Shown: positions 589 through 11,405 of the stretch, piece after piece
Layout: each line of letters begins with the position of its first letter
Numbering within the stretch: the stretch's first letter is position 1
NCBI RefSeq assembly: GCF_000018105.1
Contig: NC_009925.1
Location: forward strand, 4,710,001 to 4,742,000
Length of the DNA stretch: 32,000 nt
Source of the DNA: Acaryochloris marina MBIC11017
GTDB taxonomy: Bacteria; Cyanobacteriota; Cyanobacteriia; Thermosynechococcales; Thermosynechococcaceae
Direction: 5' to 3'
Translations under genes and position numbers: made by a program
The notes under the pieces: model-generated
What the model was told of the DNA's origin: nothing
Databases searched by the model: none
What the model saw: the letters and a program-made list of their open reading frames with translations, nothing else

Positions 589-1500
589 ATGAATAAGCAA
601 GGTAAATGGTTGAGAGAACCAAAGAATGGCCTTAACGTGGTGTTTATTCATGGGATTCACTCAAGCGATGATTGCTGGAGATCCAAAAACGGGACTTACT
701 GGCCGAATTTACTAAAAGCTGAAGGTGAATTAGATGATATAGGAATCTACTTGTTTTCCTATCAAACTGGATTCAATGCAGGTTCCTATAGTTTGGGGGA
801 CATCGTTGACTCTTTATATGAGCATATAACTAATTTTGATCAGGTCTTGGATAGCGATCGAGTTATCTTTGTGTGCCATAGTATGGGAGGTATTATCGCA
901 AGGCGATTCCTGGTTAGAGAAGAATCGAACTTAATTGATAAAGGACTAAAACGCATTGGTTTGTTTCTGGTGGCATCTCCCTCATTAGGTTCTGATTATG
1001 CCAATATGCTTGCCCTTGTATCAGAATTTTTCGGGTATACACAAGCAAAGACTTTGAAATTTTCCCAGAATAATGTCTGGCTCAATGATTTGGACAATGA
1101 TTTTATTAACCTCAAAGATGCGAATAGATTAAATATTAAGGGGCAAGAACTCATTGAAGCTTTACCCATTAAAATCATTCGTTTCTTTGGCTTCAAAAAA
1201 CAAATTGTGGAACCATTCTCAGGCGCAAGATATTTTGGCAGATCCTATAAAGTAGCTGGTTCAGATCACATCACAATCGCCAAGCCTGAGGATAAATATG
1301 CAGACCAGCATCGCTTACTGATTAATTTCATCAAGGATTTTGAAAAACCCTACAATTTATCTAAAACCCAAGCATCAGAGACACAAGACCTATCAAATCC
1401 CACAAAAAGAGATCAAGAAAATCAAATTAGATTGCAGTTCAATAATGAGATATCTGGTGGGGTAGTAAACCAAGCAGAAACTATCAATATTCAGAATTGA
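589..1500 (+). CDS. alpha/beta-hydrolase fold protein (lipase/esterase-like, SesB/PGAP1 type) with N/Q/G-rich C-terminal tail; candidate effector module of the downstream NB-ARC protein
   Basis: 303-aa ORF. It has VVFIHGIHSS near the N-terminus, the nucleophile elbow CHSMGG (GxSxG) about 70 aa later, then LVASPSLGS. It ends at TGA 1498-1500, which is in frame with ORF 1576..3543. Confidence 0.7.
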   Translation: MNKQGKWLREPKNGLNVVFIHGIHSSDDCWRSKNGTYWPNLLKAEGELDDIGIYLFSYQTGFNAGSYSLGDIVDSLYEHITNFDQVLDSDRVIFVCHSMGGIIARRFLVREESNLIDKGLKRIGLFLVASPSLGSDYANMLALVSEFFGYTQAKTLKFSQNNVWLNDLDNDFINLKDANRLNIKGQELIEALPIKIIRFFGFKKQIVEPFSGARYFGRSYKVAGSDHITIAKPEDKYADQHRLLINFIKDFEKPYNLSKTQASETQDLSNPTKRDQENQIRLQFNNEISGGVVNQAETINIQN

Positions 1501-1575
1501 CTAAAGTCGTCCGACTGGGACCGGACAGAGTTAAATCCCAATATTCATATCCCCAATAATCTTCCCCGTAGTGGT

Positions 1576-3543
1576 GTGATTGCTTTCGAGGGTCGGGAGG
1601 ATCTGCTTACTCAACTCCAAAGCCAGCTCAAGAACAATGAGCTAAGTGGTATCACTGGAGTCAGAGGCATGGGTGGAATCGGGAAAACAGAGCTTGTCCT
1701 CCAGTACGCGATCTCCTGTTTTAACCAACAACTCTATCCTGGGGGTGTTTGTTGGCTTCGGGCGAGAGATCAAGAAATTGCTACTCAAATTATCAGCTTT
1801 GCCAAGGCTAATCTGGGCATCAAACCACCCGATAAACTAGAAACTAAGGAGAAAGTGAAATTCATATGGCAACGATGGCCAGAAGGAGATAGCCTCGTTA
1901 TTGTGGATGATGTCACAGACTATGCTGCTATCGATCCCTATCTACCACCTGCCTCACAGAAATTCAAGATCCTGATTACCACACGCATCAATCTCGGTTC
2001 ATCAGTTACTCAAATAGAGATTGAAAAACTCACTGATCAGGCTGCAATTAAAGTACTAAAAGCCATTGTGGGGAAGGATCGAATAGAGTCACAGCTCACT
2101 TCTGTGAAAACTCTTTGTCAAAAAGTCGGTAATCTACCCCTAGGTTTAGAATTATTGGGACGGTTTCTAGCAAGGAAATTAGATTGGTCTGTTCAAAAGC
2201 TGATTGAAAGACTTGAATCCAAGAAATTAGAAGCGAAAGCCCTCATTGAAACAGAATCAGGAATGACAGCCCGGTTAGGGATTGCCGCTGCGCTGGAATT
2301 GAGTTGGGTAGAGCTAAACGACGCAGAACAGAAACTTGCTTGCTTATTGGGGATGTTTTCTGTCGCTCCCATCTCTTGGCATTTAGTTGAGATGAGTTTA
2401 TCTAAAAAGGATACGGATTGCCTTGAAGAACTCAGAGATGAGGGGTTAATCGACAATAGCTTGCTGAAACGAGTAGGACAAGGCACCTATCAACTCCATC
2501 AAATTATTCAGGAATTCTTTCGAATTAAGTTGAATGAGCGCACTGATAAGGGAGAATCTCTAAAAAAAACTTATTGCAAAGTAATGATTGGTTTTACAAA
2601 GGATATTAGTGACATTCCAACGATTGATGAGATTGATGAGCTGAAGAAAACTATCCCACACCTTGAAGAAATGATTAATCATTGGATTAGTTATCTAGCA
2701 GACGAAGATTTGATCTGGGCATTTGAAGGTATCGGTCGATTTTATGAAGGGCAGGGAGATTTTAGTCTGTCATTATTCTGGAGAAGAAAAGGCGTAAATC
2801 AAACTCAGAAAAAATTAAGTGCTAAGAACCCTGATTATTTACGTAGTCTCAGGCATCTAGGATTGTTTTACTTAAAACTGGGTAATGACAAGGAAGCACA
2901 ACCGCTTTTAGAGAAGGTATTTGAAGAGATAAAAGACTCTGAAGAAGAAGGTGTCTTAGGTATAAGATTACGCAACGATCTAGGAGCACTTTACTTTAGG
3001 CAGGAACGGTTTTCAAAAGCTGAATCATTCTATAATAAGGCACTTGAATTAAGTCAAAAGTCATTATTTAAAGAAAATTCTGATATAGCATCAATCCTCA
3101 ACAACCTTGCAAAAATCCATGAGAAAAAAGGTCTTTCTGAAAAAGCAAAATCTTTATATGATGAAGCTCTAAACCTAGAAGAAATTGGAGATTTTAATTT
3201 CGCACAGATCCTCGATAACTTAGGTAATCACTATAATATGAAAAAACAGTATCGAGAGGCAGAACCTTACTTTGAAAAATCTTTAAAAATAAGAAAGAGT
3301 ACCTTAGGAGAGAAACATCTTAAAGTTGCTGAGAGTCTTAGTAACACTGCTGATAACTATTTTTTTCAAGGACGTTTTCAGGAGGCGGCAAAACTTTTTA
3401 AGCAATCGGCAGCTATTTATGAGGAGTTATTTGATTGCGAATATCACAAAACAGTTGAAGTTAAAAAAAGCTTAGAAATTTGCGATCTAGCGATAAGATT
3501 TTGGTTGATTCGACTAATAATTAAATTGAGATTATGTTTTTAA
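1576..3543 (+). CDS. NB-ARC (STAND) NTPase with C-terminal TPR repeats, bacterial NLR-like protein
   Basis: FEGRE motif, then Walker A GMGGIGKT (1666-1689), Walker B LVIVDDV, ILITTR and the GLPL-type motif GNLPLGLELLG. Several TPR_12-like repeats follow (LNNLAKIHEKKGLSEKAKSLYDEAL, LDNLGNHYNMKKQYREAEPYFEKSL, LSNTADNYFFQGRFQEAAKLFKQS). The called start is GTG with no SD, and the upstream sequence is open in the same frame. Confidence 0.9.
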   Translation: MIAFEGREDLLTQLQSQLKNNELSGITGVRGMGGIGKTELVLQYAISCFNQQLYPGGVCWLRARDQEIATQIISFAKANLGIKPPDKLETKEKVKFIWQRWPEGDSLVIVDDVTDYAAIDPYLPPASQKFKILITTRINLGSSVTQIEIEKLTDQAAIKVLKAIVGKDRIESQLTSVKTLCQKVGNLPLGLELLGRFLARKLDWSVQKLIERLESKKLEAKALIETESGMTARLGIAAALELSWVELNDAEQKLACLLGMFSVAPISWHLVEMSLSKKDTDCLEELRDEGLIDNSLLKRVGQGTYQLHQIIQEFFRIKLNERTDKGESLKKTYCKVMIGFTKDISDIPTIDEIDELKKTIPHLEEMINHWISYLADEDLIWAFEGIGRFYEGQGDFSLSLFWRRKGVNQTQKKLSAKNPDYLRSLRHLGLFYLKLGNDKEAQPLLEKVFEEIKDSEEEGVLGIRLRNDLGALYFRQERFSKAESFYNKALELSQKSLFKENSDIASILNNLAKIHEKKGLSEKAKSLYDEALNLEEIGDFNFAQILDNLGNHYNMKKQYREAEPYFEKSLKIRKSTLGEKHLKVAESLSNTADNYFFQGRFQEAAKLFKQSAAIYEELFDCEYHKTVEVKKSLEICDLAIRFWLIRLIIKLRLCF

Positions 3544-3629
3544 GGTTGTGAAGAATGTCTATTTTTGTAGACTTCAAATTATGAGTAATTATCTAACATG
3601 AATAGCTAGTAAACCTGAAAGTCATTCTG

Positions 3630-4295
3630 GTGGGGGATATTCATGTGGGTAAAAAAAGCATTGAGTGGATAAAAACTAGATTCCCAGATCAGGTTATTTA
3701 TGTGTTGGGTAATCATGAGTACTACGGCAGGGCCTTTCCCAAGCACATTCAGGATCTTAAGCAATTGATCGCAGATACAAATATCCACCTTTTGGAAAAT
3801 GATTGCTTAGTCATCAATGACGTGACATTCCTGGGGTGTACTTTATGGACAAACTTTAAATTGTTTGGTGAACCCAAAATTGCGGGCTACGAGGCGACTC
3901 AGACCATGACGGACTACCGTAAAATTCGTGTGAGCCCGGACTATCGTAAGCTGCGATCCCTTGATACGGCTATCATTCACCAAAAATCCTTGAGCTGGTT
4001 GTCTGAAGAGATCAAGCAGCTCAAGACGATGCGGAGCAAAGTTGTAATTGTGACGCACCATGCCCCCAGTAAACGTTCCATTCCCCATCCCTACCAAGAG
4101 GATATGTTGAGTGCGGCCTACGCTTCACATCTGGACCCGTTTGTTGCAAACTCCCACGCAACAGTATGGGTTCATGGTCATGTCCATGAAGAATATGACT
4201 ATGCCATCGGCAATACGCGGGTGATTTGTAATCCCAGAGGTTACCCAGATGAACCTAATGAACGTTTTATCCCTGATCTTGTGATTGAAATTTGA
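3630..4295 (+). CDS. calcineurin-like metallophosphoesterase
   Basis: Motifs GDIHVG, GNHEYY, VTHHAP and GHVHE occur in canonical order. The true start is uncertain: the frame is open from 3606, and CTG 3615 would give MKVILVGDIHVG. Confidence 0.8.
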   Translation: MGDIHVGKKSIEWIKTRFPDQVIYVLGNHEYYGRAFPKHIQDLKQLIADTNIHLLENDCLVINDVTFLGCTLWTNFKLFGEPKIAGYEATQTMTDYRKIRVSPDYRKLRSLDTAIIHQKSLSWLSEEIKQLKTMRSKVVIVTHHAPSKRSIPHPYQEDMLSAAYASHLDPFVANSHATVWVHGHVHEEYDYAIGNTRVICNPRGYPDEPNERFIPDLVIEI

Positions 4296-4318
4296 CCGCC
4301 ATCAAAGGCGGTTTATAT
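4295..4318 (+). terminator. candidate Rho-independent terminator after the metallophosphoesterase
   Basis: ACCGCC (4295-4300), loop ATCAAA, GGCGGT (4307-4312), then TTATAT. It overlaps the TGA stop. The T-tract is short. Confidence 0.4.
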
Positions 4319-4357
4319 CATCCGCAGAAATTTTGCTCTTTCCGATGAAATGAACCC

Positions 4358-5056
4358 ATGGCTAATTCAGCACTGACGCTTCCCTATTTCGATCTGATTC
4401 TGAAACAACTCGACCAGGGCGACGCTATTTTTGAGCAAGCTTTTGGTCGCCATGTTCATTGGGGCTATTGGGCCAATCCAGATCAGGCTACCTATACGGC
4501 CAAGGATTATGGGGCCGCAGCAGAGCAAATGAGTGTTGAAATTTATTCTGCGGCTCAGGTACAAGACCATCAAACCATTTTGGATGTGGGGTGTGGTGTA
4601 GGGGGCACCGTAGCCAGCTTGAATGAGCGTTTTACGAACGTCAGTTTATTGGGGCTGAATCTGGATGAACGTCAGCTAGCCTATGCCCAACAAACAGTGA
4701 CTGCTCGGCCAGAAAACACCATTGAGTTTGTCCAAGGGGATGCTTGTGCGCTGCCCTTTGCCGATCAATCGGTAGATGCGGTGTTAGCGGTTGAGTGTAT
4801 TTTTCACTTTCCAGATCGCAAGCAGTTTTTGCAGGAAGCGTTGCGGGTGCTTAAACCAGGCGGTTGGTTGGCGATTTCTGATTTTGCACCGTTTGAAATG
4901 GAAGGATGGCCCGCTTTTTTATGGCAGTCAAATCCTGTCTTGCCTAGTTTCTATGGATCGTTTGATGTCACCTACACCCTTCAAAAATATCGGATTTTGT
5001 CTGGGCAGGTTGGCTTTGGGGCAATGCAGTCTAGTATTCCGTCAAAGATTTATTGA
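4358..5056 (+). CDS. class I SAM-dependent methyltransferase (Methyltransf_11-like), 3' end disrupted by IS630-family insertion
   Basis: Motif I ILDVGCGVGG, acidic loop LGLNLDE, post-I GDACALPF and LKPGGWLAISDF. The last ~8 codons (SIPSKIY*) are read from the IS terminal repeat. The original C-terminus continues at 6246..6424. Confidence 0.85.
   Translation: MANSALTLPYFDLILKQLDQGDAIFEQAFGRHVHWGYWANPDQATYTAKDYGAAAEQMSVEIYSAAQVQDHQTILDVGCGVGGTVASLNERFTNVSLLGLNLDERQLAYAQQTVTARPENTIEFVQGDACALPFADQSVDAVLAVECIFHFPDRKQFLQEALRVLKPGGWLAISDFAPFEMEGWPAFLWQSNPVLPSFYGSFDVTYTLQKYRILSGQVGFGAMQSSIPSKIY
5034..5045. repeat. IS630-family terminal inverted repeat (end next to transposase stop)
   Basis: GTATTCCGTCAA matches the reverse complement of 6232-6243 at 10 of 12 positions and is preceded by TA. 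Confidence 0.7.
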
Positions 5057-6174
5057 TGGGTAAAGTCTGTGTAATTTGACCCTGGCATCTTGCGTCGTGA
5101 ACCGCCAGTCAATCCATGTTCCCTTTTGGTTTCGGTGCTCATTCCAAGCCCTCACATGCTTTTGTAAGGTTGGAAAATCAGCAATGCGTTGATCTAAACA
5201 TTGACGAGACAGGATACTTAATTCAATCTCAGCCATATTGAGCCAGCTTCCATGCTTGGGGGTGTAGAAAAATTCGAACCGAGATAAAAGTCTCCTGGCT
5301 TCTTCAGGTTCAAAAGCTTTGTAGAGTGAGGAGGGGGAGTGAATATTGAGATTGTCTTGAACCAGCGTGAGGGTGTGGGCCTCAGGGTAAAACACATCCA
5401 CTAATTCTTTGAGTAGATGAGCATAGTCAATGGCAGTTCGTCGTTGAGTTACTTTCACATATCGCGTGCCTACTATTGGCTCACACAACATAAAGAGATT
5501 GGCTGTGCCCTTACGTTCATACTCATAGTCAACACGTTCGGGTTGACCACGTTGAGCCGCGATGGGTAGAGTGATTTCCTCAACCAATTGCTTGGTGGCT
5601 TCATCCAGACAAATCAAAGGATTCCTCAAGTCATAAGGACGCTCATAAACCGTTAAGAGCTCCTCCATTCGCCAGACAAATTCTGCATTCTGCTGTGGGG
5701 GGATGACCCAACAGGTCTTTCGCCAAGGCTGCAACTCGTTTTTTTTAGAGTTTGTCGGACACTCTCATGACTGAGGTGGTCGATGTAGCCTAATTCCACC
5801 ATCTGGTCTGCGAGTAAGCGTAATGTCCAGCGAGCATGACCAACGGGGGGTTCACTGCAGCGTAAGGCAATCAGATGAGCTTCTTGTTCTCCTTGTATTT
5901 TTCGCTTTCGACCTGCCCCAGAACGTTGATTGATAGCAGCTTCAAGGCCTTCTTCCACAAATCGCATACGCACCCGCTCAATTGTGCGTATGCTGACACC
6001 TATCGCTTCATGAATTTCTCGATCACAGCAACCACCATGAGTTTGGTTAGTATCCGCTTTCAGAAGAATGCGGGCATGATTGATTTGCCGAGCACCTCGT
6101 TTTCCCGTGAACGTGAAATTCTTGAGATACTGTTGCTCTGGCTCACTCAGAGTGACGATGTACCGTTTACCCAT
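5042..6174 (-). CDS. IS630-family transposase, HTH ORF (6174..5653) joined to DDE ORF (5734..5042) by a programmed -1 frameshift
   Basis: ORFA begins MGKRYIVTLSEPEQQYLK and has HTH regions, with AGGAG 6 nt upstream of the ATG. ORFB carries DDE_3-like motifs (CLDEATK, LVQDNLNIH, YTPKHGSWLNMAEIE). A slip on the A8 run gives TLKKNELQPWRKTCWVIPP, the typical IS630 junction. Confidence 0.85.
5739..5746 (-). other. A_AAA_AAA -1 frameshift slippery site (A8 run on minus strand)
   Basis: The minus strand reads ACT CTA AAA AAA ACG in the ORFA frame. The -1 frame continues AAC GAG TTG CAG CCT TGG into the DDE ORF. Confidence 0.65.
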
Positions 6175-6231
6175 GACGTTCTCCTAGAATGCGTCCATTT
6201 CATTCTAGAAAATATACCTGTCAGTCTTTTC

Positions 6232-6243
6232 TTGACTGAACAC
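6232..6243. repeat. IS630-family terminal inverted repeat (end upstream of transposase start)
   Basis: TTGACTGAACAC is the reverse complement of GTGTTCAGTCAA and is followed by TA 6244-6245. Confidence 0.7.
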
Positions 6244-7494: not shown

Positions 7495-8589
7495 ATGGCA
7501 CGATCCCTGCGAGTCACCATCGACAACCTGCCGAAAGTGAAACTGGCTTTGCAACGAAACGGGTATCCCAGTCAAAAGGCCTTCGCCGCCGACATTGGCC
7601 CGTCCCTCTCCACCGTCAAGAATTTTCTGGGCGGTAAACCCATTGACTACGAAAACTTCCGCGAAATCTGCGATCAATTGGGGTTGGATTGGCAAGCGAT
7701 TGCCTACACAGAGTCCCCATCGGCACTGGATGCTCCACCTGCTGCCCTGAAAGCGTCACCGTTTATCACCGGGACACCCATTCACCATCCCCGTCATTTC
7801 TTTGGTCGAGAAAGACAGCTCAAACGCTGCTTTACCCTGCTCAAACACCATCCATTGCAGAATATGGCGATCATGGGTCCACGGCGGTCAGGTAAAACCT
7901 CGTTTCTCCGCTACCTAGAGACCATCCCCACGACTGCACCGGATCAACTGCGACCCCACCAAAAGCAGAATTGGTTGCCTCGTCCAGATCTCTACAACTG
8001 GATTTTCGTTGATTTTCAAAATGCCCGCATGTCCAGCCAGGATAAACTACTAGGCTATTTACTATCGGCCCTCAGTTTGCCAGTTCCCGATGCCCTGGAT
8101 TTAGATGGCTTTATGGATCGGGTCAGTGGTGCCGTCCATCAGCCCACCGTCATCCTGCTAGATGAGATTGGGGTGGGTTTGCAGCGATGTCCTGAGCTAG
8201 ACGATGCCTTTTGGGAAAGTCTTCGGTCTTTAGCCACAAATCAAACGGCGGGCAATTTGGCCTTTGTTATCTCTGCTCCAGAGACACCCATGGAACTGGC
8301 CCAACATAGCGGATTTAGCTCGCCCTTTTTCAATATCTTTGGCTATTCCACGACATTAGCCCCTTGGCAGCAGCAAGATACCTTAGATCTCATTGCAAGT
8401 TCACCGATTCCCTTTACGGACGCGGATCAAGCTTGGATTTGCCAGCAGAGTGGGGGCTGGCCGTTTTTGGCTCAAATTTTATGTTCTGAACGTTTGTTTG
8501 CCTTAGAAAATGACGAAACCGGGACAGCATGGCAAGTCGAAGGGTTGAAACAGATTGAACCCTATCGATATTTGTTGGATCAGAAATAA
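7495..8589 (+). CDS. HTH-domain protein fused to a STAND/AAA-like ATPase (AAA_35 / Arch_ATPase-like)
   Basis: N-terminal XRE-like HTH (QKAFAADIGPSLSTVKNFLGGKPIDYENFREICDQLGLDWQ), then FFGRERQL, Walker A GPRRSGKTSFL (GKT at 7891-7899), Walker B VILLDEIG and GGWPFLAQILC. Confidence 0.7.
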   Translation: MARSLRVTIDNLPKVKLALQRNGYPSQKAFAADIGPSLSTVKNFLGGKPIDYENFREICDQLGLDWQAIAYTESPSALDAPPAALKASPFITGTPIHHPRHFFGRERQLKRCFTLLKHHPLQNMAIMGPRRSGKTSFLRYLETIPTTAPDQLRPHQKQNWLPRPDLYNWIFVDFQNARMSSQDKLLGYLLSALSLPVPDALDLDGFMDRVSGAVHQPTVILLDEIGVGLQRCPELDDAFWESLRSLATNQTAGNLAFVISAPETPMELAQHSGFSSPFFNIFGYSTTLAPWQQQDTLDLIASSPIPFTDADQAWICQQSGGWPFLAQILCSERLFALENDETGTAWQVEGLKQIEPYRYLLDQK

Positions 8590-8591
8590 CG

Positions 8592-11405
8592 GTGTCGCGC
8601 TTACAGGGCTATACCCATGCTCCGCCCCTGCATCCCAACTTAGTTTTGGGGAGTTTGCATCTACTCTGTTGGTTCTTCTTCCATCCTTCGGCCTGGAAAC
8701 ATCACCTGCGCTCCATCAATCTGCGCCCTGATTTTTGTCTAGCGGAGATCAATTGGAGACAACCCCAGCCCTCAGCGCTCAAACGGTTGTTGATACAAGG
8801 GTATGTAATTCTGCCTCTGCTGGTTGGGGGTGTTGTTGGTCTGGGGCTATGGGGATTAAGTGTTTCTGGTGCTGATATGGCCTTTGGCATGGCAGTGGGC
8901 ATGGCTGCAAGTGTCGCTGGCAGCTTAGCTGGGGGAATGGTGGTGGGCGTCGCCGTTAGTTTGGCCAGCAGTTTTATCAGCGGGATTGTGGTGGGACTCC
9001 TATTTGGGGTCATGCTGGGAACAACCACCCTCGCCGAGCTGGGTTGGGGGTTGGGGTCAGCTGCAGCGAGTGTGGGGGTGTTGCAGAGCTTTATTCACCC
9101 GGTGTCCTTGGTGGGGATTAATGCCTCGAATGTGGCGGCTAGTGTAGCTGTGAGTTTGTCGCCTCGAAAAAGCGATCTCATTCCCGTATCGCAAAAACTA
9201 GGTGGTGCAGTGTTGGGGATTGTCCTGAGCCTCAGCGGTCTATGGGCGGTGGCCCAAGCAACAACGCAGCTTCTCCGGCCGGGTGCAATTCCACTTAACA
9301 CCGTCTCTTTTGCCCTTTTAGGGTTGGGAATGGGGTGCTTTTACGGTATTGCCCTGGGATGGCGAACGCAGCGATGGCGGATTGCAATCCCAATGTGCCT
9401 TGGTTTAGGAGCCTTCATTGGCACAGCAGTGGGACTGGGCTTAAACGTTAACAGTGCTGTGGTTCGGGGTATGGTGATTGGCGGTGGTAATGCCGCACTC
9501 TTAACCACCTTATTTGCTCTGCCCTATGTGCTGACGGAATCCATCGCTGGTCCTTGGATTGCCGCAATTGTGGGCACCATTGGCAGCGGCGGCGTGTATA
9601 TCATTTTTGCCAGTCTGATTGGTGGGCTATCCCTGCAACTGACGTTACCGATAAGCCTGGTTTGCATCGCTTTGGGATTAACGATGGCCCAGTGGCGACC
9701 TATTTTGCTATATCCCGTACAAATCTTGTGGAATCAGTGTCTGTATCGCCTCGATACCCAAAGAACGGAGCATCAATCTAGCGTCCTACGATGGCATACG
9801 GTGTTCTGGGATGAGTTTCAATATCTGCCGTTAGTCGGGCTAGATCAGCATTTAGTCCTGGCTCTGGAGAGTTGGGCACAAGAGGGACAAGCGGCCATCG
9901 ACTTTATTGATCGCACACCGCAACGATGGGCGGCTCACCAGGCTCAAGTGGAGCTGAATATTCGTAAGTTAGAGCAATGCAGAACAATCGCAGATATCTG
10001 CCAGGTTCAGAAGACGATTCTGGGTGAAGCAACGGAGGAGAGTCATCTATTCCGTATCTGTCAGCAGATCAGTTTGGATGTGGATGCCGCCCTACAGCAA
10101 AGGAGTTCCTACAATCAGCGGTTGGCTCTGAGCGCGGTCTTGGAACGATTGGATACTCAACGGCAGGTGATACGAGGGGATGCGGTCTATGTCCCGCGGC
10201 CAGCAAATAACGACTATCGCATCGCCGGATTCCGCACTATTTTTCAGGCCTGGCATCAGATCATTGCCCAACAGATTGAAACCCTCCAAACCGAGACGGA
10301 CCAGAACCAAGAAATTGACTCGCCCTACATTATCGGTATCCCTTTAACTGGGCAACAGGCGCTGTTTGTTGGTCGGACGGATATTAGCCAGCGAATTGAA
10401 CAGCTCGTGCGCGATGATCGCAGTCCGGCTTTGTTGCTGTACGGGCAGCGACGCATGGGCAAAACGTCATTGCTCAATAATTTAGGGCGTTTGCTCCCCC
10501 AGACGATTATTCCCTTATTTGTGGATTTGCAAGGGTCAGCATCACGGGCTCAGGATCACACGGGCTTTTTATATAACCTAGCCAAAGCCATGTCAGCCGC
10601 TGCAAAACAGTATCGAGGCGTTCAATTTCCCCCTTTGGAACGAAGCGATTTGGCGGTTGATCCTTTTACCCAGTTTGAAGAATGGCTAGATGAAGTAGGG
10701 GTGCTGTTGGGCAATCGGACGGCATTGCTAGCTCTAGATGAGTTTGAAGTTTTAGTGGGTGCCTTTGAGCAGGGAAGATTTGACGAATCTGCCATTTTGG
10801 GAATGCTACGTCATCTCATTCAGCATCGCCCTCAGTTTAAGGTATTGCTCTCGGGCACTCATACTCTGGAAGCATTCAAAAGTTGGGCTAGCTATTTGAT
10901 TAATCTGCAAGTGGTTCCAGTCAGCTATTTGACGGAACCAGAAGCGCTGCAGCTGATCACAAATCCCATCCCTGAATTTGAGTTGCAATACGAGCCTGAT
11001 GCGGTACAGCGGGTGATAGCACTAACCCACTGCCATCCTTTTTTGATCCAACTGCTTTGTGCTGAAATTATTGCCCTGAAAAATGAGCAGGGCATCACGA
11101 TCCGCCGATGGGCAACCTTGGCAGATGTGGAAGCAGCGGTTCCCCAAGCTTTGACCAGTGCCAGTTTCTTCTTTACCGATATTGAGCAAAATCAAGTCAG
11201 TGTAGACGAATTAGCAATTCTGAAATATATGGCAGCTCGGGGAGAAGGGAATGCTATTACCGCTAGCGACTTAAACCAATATCTAAATAAACCAGTAGAT
11301 AGCCTAATGCGTCACTTGAGACAGCAAGACCTCATTCAATCTGTAGATGGAGGGTATTGCTTTCAGGTGGAGTTGATTCGGCGGTGGTTTGCAAAGGTCT
11401 CTTAG
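8592..11405 (+). CDS. multi-pass membrane protein fused to a STAND/AAA-like ATPase paralogous to ORF 7495..8589
   Basis: GTG start 2 nt after the upstream TAA. Residues ~60-390 form many Gly/Ala/Val-rich hydrophobic segments. These are followed by a helical middle region, FVGRTDIS, Walker A GQRRMGKTSLL (10455-10469), Walker B LALDEFE, HCHPFLIQLLC and a C-terminal wHTH-like tail. Confidence 0.7.
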   Translation: MSRLQGYTHAPPLHPNLVLGSLHLLCWFFFHPSAWKHHLRSINLRPDFCLAEINWRQPQPSALKRLLIQGYVILPLLVGGVVGLGLWGLSVSGADMAFGMAVGMAASVAGSLAGGMVVGVAVSLASSFISGIVVGLLFGVMLGTTTLAELGWGLGSAAASVGVLQSFIHPVSLVGINASNVAASVAVSLSPRKSDLIPVSQKLGGAVLGIVLSLSGLWAVAQATTQLLRPGAIPLNTVSFALLGLGMGCFYGIALGWRTQRWRIAIPMCLGLGAFIGTAVGLGLNVNSAVVRGMVIGGGNAALLTTLFALPYVLTESIAGPWIAAIVGTIGSGGVYIIFASLIGGLSLQLTLPISLVCIALGLTMAQWRPILLYPVQILWNQCLYRLDTQRTEHQSSVLRWHTVFWDEFQYLPLVGLDQHLVLALESWAQEGQAAIDFIDRTPQRWAAHQAQVELNIRKLEQCRTIADICQVQKTILGEATEESHLFRICQQISLDVDAALQQRSSYNQRLALSAVLERLDTQRQVIRGDAVYVPRPANNDYRIAGFRTIFQAWHQIIAQQIETLQTETDQNQEIDSPYIIGIPLTGQQALFVGRTDISQRIEQLVRDDRSPALLLYGQRRMGKTSLLNNLGRLLPQTIIPLFVDLQGSASRAQDHTGFLYNLAKAMSAAAKQYRGVQFPPLERSDLAVDPFTQFEEWLDEVGVLLGNRTALLALDEFEVLVGAFEQGRFDESAILGMLRHLIQHRPQFKVLLSGTHTLEAFKSWASYLINLQVVPVSYLTEPEALQLITNPIPEFELQYEPDAVQRVIALTHCHPFLIQLLCAEIIALKNEQGITIRRWATLADVEAAVPQALTSASFFFTDIEQNQVSVDELAILKYMAARGEGNAITASDLNQYLNKPVDSLMRHLRQQDLIQSVDGGYCFQVELIRRWFAKVS

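What the first reader, a model, noticed from the sequence alone, without database searches (positions are those of the whole stretch)
589..3543. A single in-frame TGA splits what reads as one hydrolase-NB-ARC-TPR (NLR-like) gene
ORFs 589..1500 and 1576..3543 are in the same frame (both coordinates are 1 mod 3). I translated the 25 codons between them (1501-1575: LKSSDWDRTELNPNIHIPNNLPRSG) and found no stop. TGA 1498-1500 is therefore the only interruption of a 2955-nt frame, which would encode about 984 aa: hydrolase, N/Q/G linker, NB-ARC, TPR. The NB-ARC ORF's called start is a GTG with no purine-rich SD. The residues just upstream (NNLPRSG) look like the linker that usually precedes the F-x-GRE motif of STAND proteins. 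The stop is followed by C (TGA-C), a context reported to terminate poorly in E. coli. Three readings are possible: a very recent nonsense mutation (a dying defence gene), an assembly error, or regulated readthrough. Readthrough would give abundant free effector and rare full-length sensor-effector from one gene.
Basis: partly seen in the sequence, partly recalled or inferred. Interest (0 to 1): 0.8.

Follow-up and report, generated by a model that had tools for sequence, protein, structure and literature searches.

The report
Conserved UGA-plus-pseudoknot junction in cyanobacterial NLR genes
The in-frame TGA between the hydrolase and the NB-ARC/TPR reading frames is not a mutation or an assembly error: it belongs to a conserved RNA signal (UGA, an 8-nt spacer, a small pseudoknot) found at about 40 effector/NLR junctions in cyanobacteria, and it most likely makes ribosomes occasionally read through the stop.

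Summary
ORF 589-1497 (alpha/beta-hydrolase), TGA 1498-1500, 25 open codons and the NB-ARC+TPR frame to 3543 form one 984-codon frame. Independent assemblies carry the same TGA, so it is not an assembly error.

Diverged homologues (hydrolase 58-78% identical) keep the TGA at the same place. Both halves are under purifying selection (dN/dS 0.10-0.29), so it is not a dying gene.

A stop-blind DNA pattern scan, a plasmid search and a covariance model gave 40 copies of the junction: TGA 37, TAG 1, TAA 1, TGT 1. Each is followed by 8 nt, a 5-bp stem (100% paired, two covarying pairs), a second stem between its loop and downstream UCCC (96% paired, covarying), and a conserved A-rich loop. This is an H-type pseudoknot.

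Synonymous sites inside the element are frozen (0-0.18 bits), against 1.4-1.9 bits at the invariant P-loop of the same genes. The heads upstream vary (hydrolase, TIR, Bell-like) and all end in an N/G/I/Q-rich tail. Most NLR frames have no usable start codon.

Best reading (about 0.55): programmed UGA readthrough gives free effector plus a rarer effector-NLR fusion. The element is not in Rfam, and I found no paper describing it. Nothing here shows translation directly.

The parts
589..1497 (+). Effector reading frame: 303-aa alpha/beta-hydrolase (Abhydrolase_6/DUF676; GxSxG-type nucleophile in VCHSMGG; SDH near the C-terminus)
   Evidence: Pfam 1.5e-09 / 3.2e-07. S98, H227 and the HSMGG block are invariant in 13 homologues. 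dN/dS is 0.14-0.29 against L118, L004 and L005.
1417..1497 (+). N/Q/G/I-rich C-terminal tail of the effector (ENQIRLQFNNEISGGVVNQAETINIQN), BASS-like in composition
   Evidence: Tail motif Q.N....GG.......I.I is conserved in stand-alone homologues. The last 25 residues before the stop in 35 copies are enriched in N, G, I, T and Q and depleted in L, P, K and A. This matches the bias reported for BASS motifs (preprint 10.1101/2020.01.06.895854). Amyloid formation was not tested.
1498..1500 (+). In-frame UGA stop, the proposed recoding site
   Evidence: TGA in 37 of 40 homologous junctions, although the stop was not part of the search pattern. The other three are TAG, TAA (decayed locus) and TGT (Cys, fused ORF).
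1501..1508 (+). 8-nt spacer CUAAAGUC (first codon CUA)
   Evidence: The spacer is 8 nt in all 40 copies. The first codon is CUA or CUG in 32 of 40.
1509..1526 (+). Stem 1 hairpin: GUCCG (1509-1513) pairs with CGGAC (1522-1526); loop ACUGGGAC
   Evidence: 100% of cells paired in 36 sequences. Pair 25/43 is UA 20, CG 15, UG 1; pair 27/41 is CG 27, UG 7, GC 2. Columns 25/43 stay linked while each shows all four gametes with most other variable sites.
1517..1539 (+). Stem 2 of the pseudoknot: loop GGGA (1517-1520) pairs with UCCC (1536-1539); loop 3 is AGAGUUAAA (1527-1535)
   Evidence: 95.8% of cells paired. Pair 35/57 is GC 27, AU 4, CG 2, GU 1. L114 has a 6-bp version, GGGAGA/UCUCCC. Loop 3 is nearly invariant.
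1501..1575 (+). 25 open codons (LKSSDWDRTELNPNIHIPNNLPRSG): the pseudoknot-encoding linker plus the conserved pre-NB-ARC linker IPNNLPRSG
   Evidence: Open in frame. IP.NLPRSG also occurs in single-ORF NLRs. Third codon positions are frozen in the pseudoknot part.
1576..1578 (+). GTG that starts the mechanical ORF; probably not the real start
   Evidence: The closest homologues have GCA or GTA here (L004, L005, L118). There is no SD. GenBank instead starts the protein at the P-loop Met (624 aa, P0001).
1597..2238 (+). NB-ARC NTPase module (F-E-GRE, then P-loop GMGGIGKTE)
   Evidence: Pfam PF00931 2.5e-17, residues 33-246 of the post-stop frame. dN/dS is 0.10-0.15.
2809..3456 (+). TPR sensor repeats
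   Evidence: TPR_12 1.3e-40 and TPR_10 5.9e-28, with TPR-family hits spanning residues 437-652.
3541..3543 (+). Final stop (TAA) of the 984-codon frame

Best explanation
One reading frame, two products. Most ribosomes terminate at UGA 1498-1500 and release a free 303-aa alpha/beta-hydrolase that ends in an N/Q/G-rich tail. When the UGA sits in the A site, the small H-type pseudoknot that begins 8 nt later (1509-1539) lies at the mRNA entrance. Together with the weak UGA-C(UA) context, it lets a near-cognate tRNA (probably Trp) occasionally win over RF2. The ribosome then continues into the linker, NB-ARC and TPR modules and makes a 984-aa all-in-one hydrolase-NLR.

Shown here:
- The stop, its frame and the open spacer.
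- The conservation of the stop.
- The nucleotide-level constraint and the covarying base pairs.
- The lack of usable start codons in most homologues.
- Purifying selection on both halves.

Inferred:
- That readthrough happens, and at what rate.
- Which amino acid is inserted.
- That the pseudoknot stimulates it.
For: 1. The TGA is conserved at the same position in diverged loci. L004, L005, L118 and L006 have hydrolases 78, 68, ~78 and 58% identical. A scan whose pattern did not include the stop gave TGA in 21 of 23 loci. Overall the count is 37 of 40, with conservation beginning exactly at the stop codon.
2. The downstream frame is always the same frame as the stop. The variable stretch between the element and F-x-GR changes length only by whole codons.
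3. In 21 of 27 CUN/AUC-type loci with a P-loop, no ATG, GTG or TTG lies between the stop and F-x-GR. In 8 loci the first one lies at or after the P-loop Gly. The window's GTG is not conserved.
4. The linker IP.NLPRSG, upstream of that GTG, is conserved in single-ORF NLRs, so it must be translated.
5. The pseudoknot: stem 1 is 100% paired and stem 2 is 95.8% paired, with 23 doubly changed cells against 6.7 in shuffles. Slid controls give 14-56% pairing. Four-gamete tests argue against simple clade structure.
6. Third-position entropy is 0-0.18 bits at TCG, NGG, CGG, NCA, TTA and AAT inside the element. This holds even where the amino acid varies (W/Q/R/G/S/K, always NNG). The value is 1.4-1.9 bits at four-fold sites of the invariant P-loop in the same loci.
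7. The geometry and context match known readthrough signals: an 8-nt spacer before an H-type pseudoknot in MoMLV, and UGA-CUA in alphaviruses (PMC13517186).
8. dN/dS is 0.14-0.29 upstream and 0.10-0.15 downstream.
9. Fused relatives exist: P0022, and L105 with TGT in place of the stop.
Against: - No expression, proteomic or ribosome-profiling data were available, so translation past the stop is not shown.
- The window's single-sequence fold is not exceptional (z = -0.86, pseudoknot not modelled).
- Many paired columns were fixed by my search pattern, so they say nothing either way. Only 3 of 9 pairs show double changes.
- Five copies have GUG directly after the stop, which would allow termination-reinitiation. 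However, four of these were found through a search biased to short ORFs, and three of the five have broken NLR frames.
- L101 has a second in-frame stop (UGA CUG UAG).
- L105 keeps the pseudoknot although its stop is a sense codon.
- The pseudoknot is small (5 + 4 bp).
- I know of no downstream-structure-stimulated readthrough in a cellular bacterial gene (my own knowledge).
Confidence: 0.55

Rival explanations
1. Two cistrons coupled by termination-reinitiation or non-canonical initiation. The ribosome terminates at UGA. The pseudoknot holds or stalls it so that it restarts at the adjacent codon (GUG, or weakly CUG). This gives a separate NLR that begins with the linker peptide.
For: The stop and the first downstream codon are always adjacent. 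Five copies have GUG there, and RefSeq starts the NLR at that GUG in A. marina S15. Bell/NLR gene pairs with gaps of 10 bp or less, or with overlaps, are common (preprint 10.1101/2020.01.06.895854).
Against: In the DNA-based samples, which did not select on this codon, the codon is CUA in 16 copies, CUG in 16, and AUC or CUC in 3, with GUG only once. CUA differs from AUG at two positions and is not a known initiator (my knowledge). Four of the five GUG cases came from a protein search that returned only short ORFs, and three of the five have broken NLR frames. A separately made NLR would carry neither effector nor tail motif, so it would have no evident link to the effector (inference).
Confidence: 0.2
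2. The conserved nucleic-acid element serves another purpose, and the in-frame layout is secondary. It could be a recombination or module-exchange site, an RNA processing or stability element, or a binding site for a protein or ligand.
For: Effector heads are exchanged just upstream of the element. The homology between L118 and L119 starts 54 nt before the TGA, while the heads are a hydrolase and a Bell-like domain. A degenerate remnant copy sits in front of the hydrolase gene in L006 (4889-4953). The pseudoknot is retained in L105, which has no stop.
Against: This does not explain why the stop is specifically UGA, why it always sits exactly 8 nt before stem 1 and in frame, why the downstream frame lacks starts, or why stem 2 covaries as an RNA pseudoknot. 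The L118/L119 homology breakpoint lies upstream of the tail motif, not in the element. The hairpin is not followed by a U-run, so it does not look like an intrinsic terminator.
Confidence: 0.12
3. Selenocysteine insertion: the UGA encodes Sec and the hairpin is a bacterial SECIS.
For: A UGA followed by a conserved hairpin, and one homologue with Cys (TGT) at the position (L105).
Against: The position lies in a linker, not a redox site. TAG and TAA variants and a UGA-CUG-UAG variant exist. The hairpin starts 8 nt after the UGA, which is closer than I recall for bacterial SECIS elements (my recollection, not tested). In the two selenium surveys I read, the cyanobacteria mentioned (Prochlorococcus, Synechococcus) carry selD (with ybbB in one survey) and are not reported as Sec-decoding; neither passage covers Acaryochloris or Nostocales (PMC1273633, PMC5029168). 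I could not scan the Acaryochloris genome for selA/selB/selC.
Confidence: 0.03
4. Recent nonsense mutation (decaying defence gene) or sequencing/assembly error.
For: A single stop in an otherwise intact frame is what a fresh mutation looks like.
Against: The same base is present in three data sets. The stop is conserved across 40 junctions in Acaryochloris, Nostoc and other cyanobacteria. Both halves show dN/dS of 0.10-0.29, with dS up to saturation.
Confidence: 0.02

Closest known systems
Gammaretrovirus (MoMLV) gag-pol readthrough signal
   Same: An in-frame stop, an 8-nt spacer, then an H-type pseudoknot whose RNA also encodes the start of the downstream domain. There are two products from one frame (PMC13517186).
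   Different: Here the stop is UGA, not UAG. The pseudoknot is about 31 nt (5 + 4 bp) against about 50 nt. The context is a bacterial ribosome with RF2 and a chromosomal or plasmid immune gene, not a virus. Function is untested.
Type II viral readthrough context (UGA-CUA / UGA-CGG; Sindbis, ONNV, PSIV) and the human UGA-CUAG genes
   Same: UGA is followed by CUA or CUG in 32 of 40 copies. L004, L005 and L118 read UGA-CUAG (PMC13517186; abstract of 10.64898/2026.07.14.738498).
   Different: Those contexts were defined on eukaryotic ribosomes. Whether CUA/CUG matters for RF2 in cyanobacteria is unknown.
Phage Q-beta coat/A1 UGA readthrough
   Same: Bacterial ribosomes read through a UGA to make a minor extended protein alongside a major short one (listed in PMC13517186).
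   Different: The Q-beta context is UGA-A, and no adjacent pseudoknot is listed. It is a phage structural gene.
Bell/BASS-NLR amyloid-signalling gene pairs (Dyrka et al., preprint 10.1101/2020.01.06.895854)
   Same: An effector (Bell, alpha/beta-hydrolase or TIR) with a roughly 25-aa N/Q/G-rich C-terminal motif lies directly upstream of, and collinear with, an NB-ARC-TPR gene in filamentous or multicellular cyanobacteria.
   Different: In the described pairs the NLR has its own start and its own copy of the motif at its N-terminus. Here there is one motif copy only, no NLR start, an in-frame UGA and a conserved RNA pseudoknot. Amyloid formation by these tails was not tested.
All-in-one hydrolase-NB-ARC-TPR proteins
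   Same: P0022 (1325 aa) has hydrolase, an N/G-rich motif, the ...GIPQNLPRSGVVQFVGR linker, NB-ARC and TPR in one ORF. In other phyla the frame of the hydrolase homologue runs on for about 400-2200 codons; what those extensions encode was not checked.
   Different: These have no stop and no pseudoknot segment. The LESPDQDRAKLNP-type insert is missing from P0022.
Bacterial SECIS / prfB (RF2) recoding sites
   Same: Recoding at UGA in bacteria. prfB also uses the weak UGA-C context (my knowledge).
   Different: No frameshift is needed here, since the frame is the same. There is no SD stimulator, the position is not typical for Sec, and non-UGA variants occur.

Membership tests
Programmed stop-codon readthrough signal with a 3' pseudoknot | In-frame stop followed by a long open frame in the same phase that encodes a functional domain | tested here: met
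   680 open codons with NB-ARC and TPR. 25 of 40 homologous junctions have a downstream frame of at least 500 codons, or one that runs off the contig with a P-loop.
Programmed stop-codon readthrough signal with a 3' pseudoknot | Stop codon identity and position conserved among diverged homologues | tested here: met
   TGA in 37 of 40, always 8 nt before stem 1. The stop was not in the search pattern.
Programmed stop-codon readthrough signal with a 3' pseudoknot | Downstream RNA structure supported by covariation, at a spacing that puts it at the mRNA entrance | tested here: met
   Stem 1 is 100% paired and stem 2 is 95.8% paired. Three pairs show double changes. Slid controls give 14-56% pairing. 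Synonymous sites are frozen. Caveats: many columns were fixed by the pattern, and the sequences are related.
Programmed stop-codon readthrough signal with a 3' pseudoknot | Downstream domain has no independent initiation site | tested here: inconclusive
   21 of 27 CUN/AUC-type loci have no ATG, GTG or TTG before F-x-GR, and in 8 the first lies at or after the P-loop. But the window itself has GTG 1576, 5 other CUN-type copies have a start before F-x-GR, and 5 copies have GUG right after the stop.
Programmed stop-codon readthrough signal with a 3' pseudoknot | Measured readthrough product that depends on the structure | not testable with these tools
   Needs a reporter assay, Western blot, mass spectrometry or ribosome profiling.
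Bacterial selenoprotein gene (UGA + SECIS) | Sec machinery (selA, selB, tRNA-Sec) in the genome | not tested
   Only 32 kb of the genome was available, and it has no tRNA gene. The surveys I read mention only Prochlorococcus and Synechococcus among cyanobacteria, with selD (and ybbB in one) rather than Sec decoding.
Bacterial selenoprotein gene (UGA + SECIS) | UGA strictly required; Cys in homologues at a catalytic or redox position | tested here: not met
   TAG, TAA and UGA-CUG-UAG variants exist. There is one TGT homologue. The position lies in an inter-domain linker.
NLR-like STAND NTPase (NB-ARC + TPR) | NB-ARC module with a P-loop, followed by repeat sensor domains | tested here: met
   PF00931 2.5e-17; GMGGIGKTE; TPR_12 1.3e-40.
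Alpha/beta-hydrolase effector (DUF676/Abhydrolase_6) | Alpha/beta-hydrolase profile match with a GxSxG nucleophile and a conserved His | tested here: met
   Pfam hits are above the curated cut-offs. HSMGG, S98 and H227 are invariant in 13 homologues. Activity and substrate are unknown. There is no close solved structure by sequence.
BASS amyloid-signalling effector/NLR pair | Effector with a C-terminal N/Q/G-rich motif of about 25 aa, next to a collinear NLR | tested here: met
   Tail composition against the published bias; the adjacency. Met by composition only; the tails were not scored against BASS profiles.
BASS amyloid-signalling effector/NLR pair | A matching copy of the motif at the N-terminus of the separately encoded NLR | tested here: not met
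   After the stop, the frame goes through the 25-codon linker straight into F-x-GR and the P-loop. There is no second motif. Canonical NLRs with their own N-terminal motif look different (P0243, P0255, P0282).
Any Rfam family | Match to a curated covariance model | tested here: not met
   Only two chance-level hits at E 1.8 and 8.8 in window 1300-1800.

The most novel reading that the evidence does not exclude
The UGA-pseudoknot junction is a single-gene form of amyloid (BASS-type) immune signalling. Termination gives abundant free effector carrying the prion-like tail. Rare readthrough gives an NLR carrying the same effector and the same tail. When the NLR oligomerises on sensing an invader, it seeds the tail fold and recruits and activates the free effector pool. 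The motif exists once, so it never has to co-evolve in two genes, and effector heads can be swapped by recombination just upstream of it. Readthrough frequency, perhaps tunable by RF2 level, stress or a ligand for the pseudoknot, would set the sensor-to-effector ratio. This would be the first structure-stimulated programmed readthrough signal known in a cellular bacterial gene family.
Probability: 0.3. Interest if true: 0.95.

Novelty: new variant of a known kind. Interest (0 to 1): 0.86.

Why it matters
If readthrough is confirmed, it would show three things.

1. Bacteria use a retrovirus-like signal (stop, spacer, pseudoknot) in their own genes. To my knowledge this is not established.
2. 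Many cyanobacterial 'effector + NLR' gene pairs are annotated wrongly. RefSeq starts the NLR at the P-loop Met, at arbitrary internal codons, or right after the stop.
3. The stoichiometry between an immune sensor and its effector can be hard-wired in one reading frame.

It also gives the amyloid-signalling field a natural system in which the sensor-side and effector-side motifs are the same sequence. The element is short, sharply defined and easy to test with reporters. It can be searched for with a covariance model across genomes.

Tried and rejected
- **Rfam:** a scan of 1300-1800 at E up to 10 gave nothing relevant.
- **Single-sequence folding:** the window element has z = -0.86 and the MFE is a different nested fold. 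The case therefore rests on comparative data, not thermodynamics.
- **Outer helix:** RNAalifold proposed a helix pairing UGACU with AGUYA. It has no double changes and is broken in the GUG and TGT variants, so I did not adopt it.
- **Overlapping NUGA start (AUGA/UUGA/CUGA):** that frame hits a stop within five codons in L004 (TTG ACT AGA GTC GCC TGA; sequence), so I rejected it.
- **SD in the spacer:** GGAG occurs only in the CUG-GAG variants and is not conserved.
- **Intrinsic terminator:** there is no U-run after the hairpin.
- **Genome-contig scan with the hydrolase alignment:** it returned no Acaryochloris locus, and no copy of the element outside cyanobacteria among the loci searched with the model. 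It did show that in other phyla the hydrolase frame runs on for about 400-2200 codons.
- **Third protein search (linker + NB-ARC N-terminus profile):** it returned only proteins of 128 aa or less. It was useless for counting sense-codon variants and biased towards broken genes, but it did reveal the stop-GUG variants.
- **Viral-contig scan:** 0 hits.
- **PADLOC:** only weak generic hits.
- **PDB by sequence:** no informative relative of the hydrolase.
- **Selenocysteine:** considered and judged unlikely (see rivals).
- **Literature searches:** none found a description of this junction.


Full report
**1. The observation**

The window is from the Acaryochloris marina MBIC11017 chromosome. P0001 and P0121 are 100% identical NCBI proteins of that strain on a 6,503,724-bp contig.

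Translating 589-3543 gives 985 codons with a single internal stop, TGA at 1498-1500. It is followed by LKSSDWDRTELNPNIHIPNNLPRSG and by the GTG at 1576 that opens the mechanical ORF.

The first 303 residues match Abhydrolase_6/DUF676. The frame after the stop matches NB-ARC (2.5e-17) and TPR_12/TPR_10. The base after the stop is C, and no SD precedes GTG 1576.

**2. Not an error, not a fresh mutation**

A second complete assembly (AP026075.1, locus L001) is 100% identical over 589-3543. It lacks the IS630 copy that the window carries at 5035-6242. A Logan assembly of run DRR374621 (L002/L003) has the same junction.

More telling, loci with hydrolases only 78%, 68% and 58% identical (L004, L005, L006) have TGA at the same codon. 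So does the pMB04 plasmid of Acaryochloris sp. 'Moss Beach' (L118). In each case the same few codons follow.

Between these loci, dN/dS is 0.14-0.29 for the hydrolase and 0.10-0.15 for the first 420 codons after the stop. Synonymous divergence runs from 0.4 to saturation. Both halves are maintained by selection, with the stop in place.

**3. The stop belongs to a conserved element**

I scanned metagenome contigs with a 34-nt pattern taken from the region after the stop. The stop itself was left out of the pattern. The scan gave 23 loci. The codon 7 nt upstream of the match is TGA in 21, TAG in 1 and TGT in 1.

A blastn search of plasmids added six records from cultured strains: A. marina S15 (two plasmids), Acaryochloris 'Moss Beach', Nostoc sp. 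UHCC 0870, Nostoc sp. C057 and Nostocales HT-58-2. RefSeq or GenBank annotates all of them as two genes.

A profile search of the linker found four more diverged loci. A covariance model built from 36 copies found four further good copies and one degenerate remnant in the flanks of loci already held. It found none in the non-cyanobacterial hydrolase loci and only one in the window.

In all there are 40 copies. The stop is TGA in 37, TAG in 1, TAA in 1 (a decayed locus) and TGT in 1. The next codon is CUA in 16, CUG in 16, GUG in 5, AUC in 2 and CUC in 1. Sequence conservation begins exactly at the stop; the 12 nt before it are not conserved, apart from a preference for U at -1 (28 of 36).

**4. 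Anatomy of the element (window coordinates)**

| Part | Coordinates | Sequence |
|---|---|---|
| Stop | 1498-1500 | UGA |
| Spacer (8 nt) | 1501-1508 | CUAAAGUC |
| Stem 1, 5' arm | 1509-1513 | GUCCG |
| Loop 1 | 1514-1516 | ACU |
| Stem 2, 5' arm | 1517-1520 | GGGA |
| Junction nucleotide | 1521 | C |
| Stem 1, 3' arm | 1522-1526 | CGGAC |
| Loop 3 | 1527-1535 | AGAGUUAAA |
| Stem 2, 3' arm | 1536-1539 | UCCC |

This is an H-type pseudoknot. On 36 distinct copies:
- Stem 1 is paired in 100% of cells. One pair is UA 20, CG 15, UG 1. Another is CG 27, UG 7, GC 2.
- Stem 2 is paired in 95.8% of cells. One pair is GC 27, AU 4, CG 2, GU 1.
- The whole structure has 23 doubly changed cells against 6.7 ± 3.2 in shuffles.
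- Sliding the 3' partners by 1-3 columns drops pairing to 14-56%.

L114 has a 3-nt insertion in the loop and a 6-bp stem 2, GGGAGA/UCUCCC.

The two covarying columns of stem 1 are almost perfectly linked ([[20,1],[0,15]]). Each of them nevertheless shows all four allele combinations with most other variable sites. Simple clade structure therefore does not explain the linkage.

Caveats: many columns were fixed by my pattern and cannot vary. The sequences are related. The window's own fold is not thermodynamically exceptional (z = -0.86, with no pseudoknot modelled). RNAalifold also proposes an outer helix that pairs the stop codon with AGUYA in loop 3. It has no double changes and is broken in the GUG and TGT variants.

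**5. The constraint is on nucleotides, not on the peptide**

In the 14 codons after the stop, third-position entropy is 0-0.18 bits at TCG (Ser), NGG, CGG (Arg), NCA, TTA/TCA and AAT/CAT. At the NGG codon the amino acid varies freely (W, Q, R, G, S, K), yet the final G, which is a stem 2 base, is invariant.

In the same loci the invariant P-loop GMGGxGKTELA shows 1.4-1.9 bits at its four-fold sites. The third positions that do vary inside the element are the wobble-tolerant stem positions and the loop positions. No Rfam family matches the region.

**6. What sits on each side**

Upstream of the stop there are different heads:
- the window's alpha/beta-hydrolase family, and a second hydrolase subfamily;
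- a TIR domain (L097);
- most often, a helical domain of about 140 aa with a hydrophobic N-terminal helix (MEPLTAGAIATLAFTKAFEKT...). It has no Pfam match and resembles the published description of Bell domains.

All but one of the complete copies end, within a few residues of the stop, in a tail rich in N, G, I, T and Q and poor in L, P, K and A. This is the compositional bias reported for bacterial amyloid signalling (BASS) motifs.

Downstream there is an NB-ARC or another P-loop STAND NTPase. In 25 of 40 copies this frame is at least 500 codons long, or runs off the contig with an intact P-loop.

L118 and L119 share 88% identity from 54 nt upstream of the TGA through the NLR. Upstream of that point they carry unrelated heads, a hydrolase and a Bell-like domain. 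So the tail, the UGA, the pseudoknot and the NLR travel together, and heads are exchanged in front of them.

The one sense-codon copy (L105, TGT) is a fused hydrolase-NTPase, and it has no N/Q/G tail.

**7. How the NLR half gets translated**

The stretch between the pseudoknot and F-x-GR varies in sequence and length, but always by whole codons and always in the frame of the stop. Its IP.NLPRSG motif is also present in single-ORF NLRs (P0022, P0244, P0246). It is therefore coding sequence, and translation must enter from upstream of GTG 1576.

Among the 27 CUN/AUC-type loci with a P-loop, 21 have no ATG, GTG or TTG between the stop and F-x-GR. In 8 the first such codon lies at or after the P-loop Gly: L004, L005, L095, L097, L110, L118, L119 and L122. 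The window's GTG is replaced by GCA or GTA in its closest relatives. GenBank resorts to the P-loop Met for the MBIC11017 protein (624 aa).

The simplest way to translate this frame is through the stop. The layout matches known readthrough signals: an 8-nt spacer before an H-type pseudoknot in MoMLV, and UGA-CUA in alphaviruses (PMC13517186).

**8. Rivals**

- **Termination-reinitiation** is the serious rival, because five copies have GUG directly after the stop. But four of those were found through a protein search that returned only short ORFs. Three of the five have broken NLR frames, and one more runs off its contig. In the DNA-based samples, which did not select on this codon, GUG occurs once against 35 CUN/AUC. 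CUA is not a plausible initiator.
- **A DNA- or RNA-level role unrelated to decoding** (module exchange, processing) fits the mosaic structure. It does not explain the specific, phased UGA or the missing starts.
- **Selenocysteine** is unlikely. The position is in a linker, TAG, TAA and double-stop variants exist, and the surveys I read do not report Sec decoding in the cyanobacteria they mention. I could not check the genome for sel genes.
- **Mutation or assembly error** is excluded (section 2).

**9. Comparison with what is known**

The proteins are ordinary: an alpha/beta-hydrolase effector and an NB-ARC-TPR NLR-like STAND. The locus resembles the Bell/BASS-NLR gene pairs of Dyrka et al., which also include hydrolase and TIR effectors.

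It fails one defining feature of that system: the NLR has no start of its own and no second copy of the motif. It is equally close to the all-in-one architecture (P0022), from which it differs by the stop and the pseudoknot-encoding insert.

The recoding signal resembles the gammaretroviral one, but it is smaller, uses UGA and sits in bacterial cellular genes. Neither the BASS papers nor the STAND/conflict-system paper mentions stop codons, readthrough or recoding. My other searches found no description either.

**10. Verdict**

The real finding is larger than the window: a conserved UGA + spacer + pseudoknot junction shared by at least 40 effector/NLR loci in Acaryochloris, Nostoc and other cyanobacteria.

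- Shown: the conservation, the phase, the nucleotide-level constraint, the covariation, the lack of starts, and purifying selection.
- Inferred: that ribosomes read through, how often, and that the two products cooperate.

The amyloid-seeding idea in the novel case is a hypothesis built on tail composition and on the L118/L119 and L105 observations.

My confidence in readthrough as the mechanism is about 0.55. My confidence that this is a functional, selected junction element of some kind is above 0.9.

Noticed in passing
window 5035-6242: An IS630-family element (two overlapping transposase ORFs, 5042-5734 and 5653-6174, minus strand) is inserted in the methyltransferase gene that starts at 4358. 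The gene is 232 aa here but 284 aa in AP026075.1 and in the Logan assembly, which lack the insertion. The two chromosomes are otherwise 99.98% identical across the region.
   Followed up: partly
L101 4642-4706 (minus strand): This copy reads UGA CUG UAG, a second in-frame stop two codons after the first. The NB-ARC frame stays open for about 537 more codons. It could be a very recent inactivation or a double readthrough.
   Followed up: partly
L105 2430-2494 (minus strand): This is the only copy with a sense codon (TGT, Cys) in place of the stop. It is a fused hydrolase-NTPase that keeps both pseudoknot stems (GCCCG/CGGGC and AGGA/UCCU) but has no N/Q/G-rich tail before the junction.
   Followed up: partly
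alignment A4 columns 33 and 39 (window 1515 and 1521): Two unpaired pseudoknot positions covary as A/A or C/C ([[21,0],[1,9]]). In the peptide this reads E..E or D..D. It could be a tertiary RNA contact or a peptide effect; it is unexplained.
   Followed up: no
L006 4889-4953: A degenerate remnant of the element (40 bits), preceded by a ...GGQNFVGGTHYHGNPP tail fragment and a TGA, lies about 50 nt upstream of the start of the hydrolase gene. It looks like a scar of module exchange. The NACHT-type NTPase downstream of the L006 junction is split over three frames.
   Followed up: partly
L118 (Acaryochloris 'Moss Beach' pMB04) 2083-5145 and 5580-6041: Two junction-bearing systems stand in tandem: hydrolase-UGA-NLR, then Bell-like-UGA-(NLR). 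The 30 nt before each TGA are identical. Between the window and L118, dS is 0.46 for the hydrolase but 1.77 for the NB-ARC part, which suggests a mosaic history.
   Followed up: partly
window 7495-8589 and 8592-11405: A second STAND-type pair lies close by: a 364-aa AAA_16 protein, followed 2 nt later, in a different frame, by a 937-aa nSTAND1/AAA_22 protein that starts with GTG. There is no copy of the pseudoknot element here.
   Followed up: no
alignment A4 column 12 (window 1497): The base just before the stop is U in 28 of 36 copies and never G, although the codon and amino acid there vary. It may be part of the termination context.
   Followed up: no
L115/L116 and L114: In these stop-GUG variants the NB-ARC frame is cut by a stop about 20 residues after the P-loop; in L115/L116 it replaces the conserved Tyr of EADYPGGICWL. 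The frame stays open for hundreds of codons afterwards in L115/L116, as in L101. I did not examine whether this is decay or something else.
   Followed up: no
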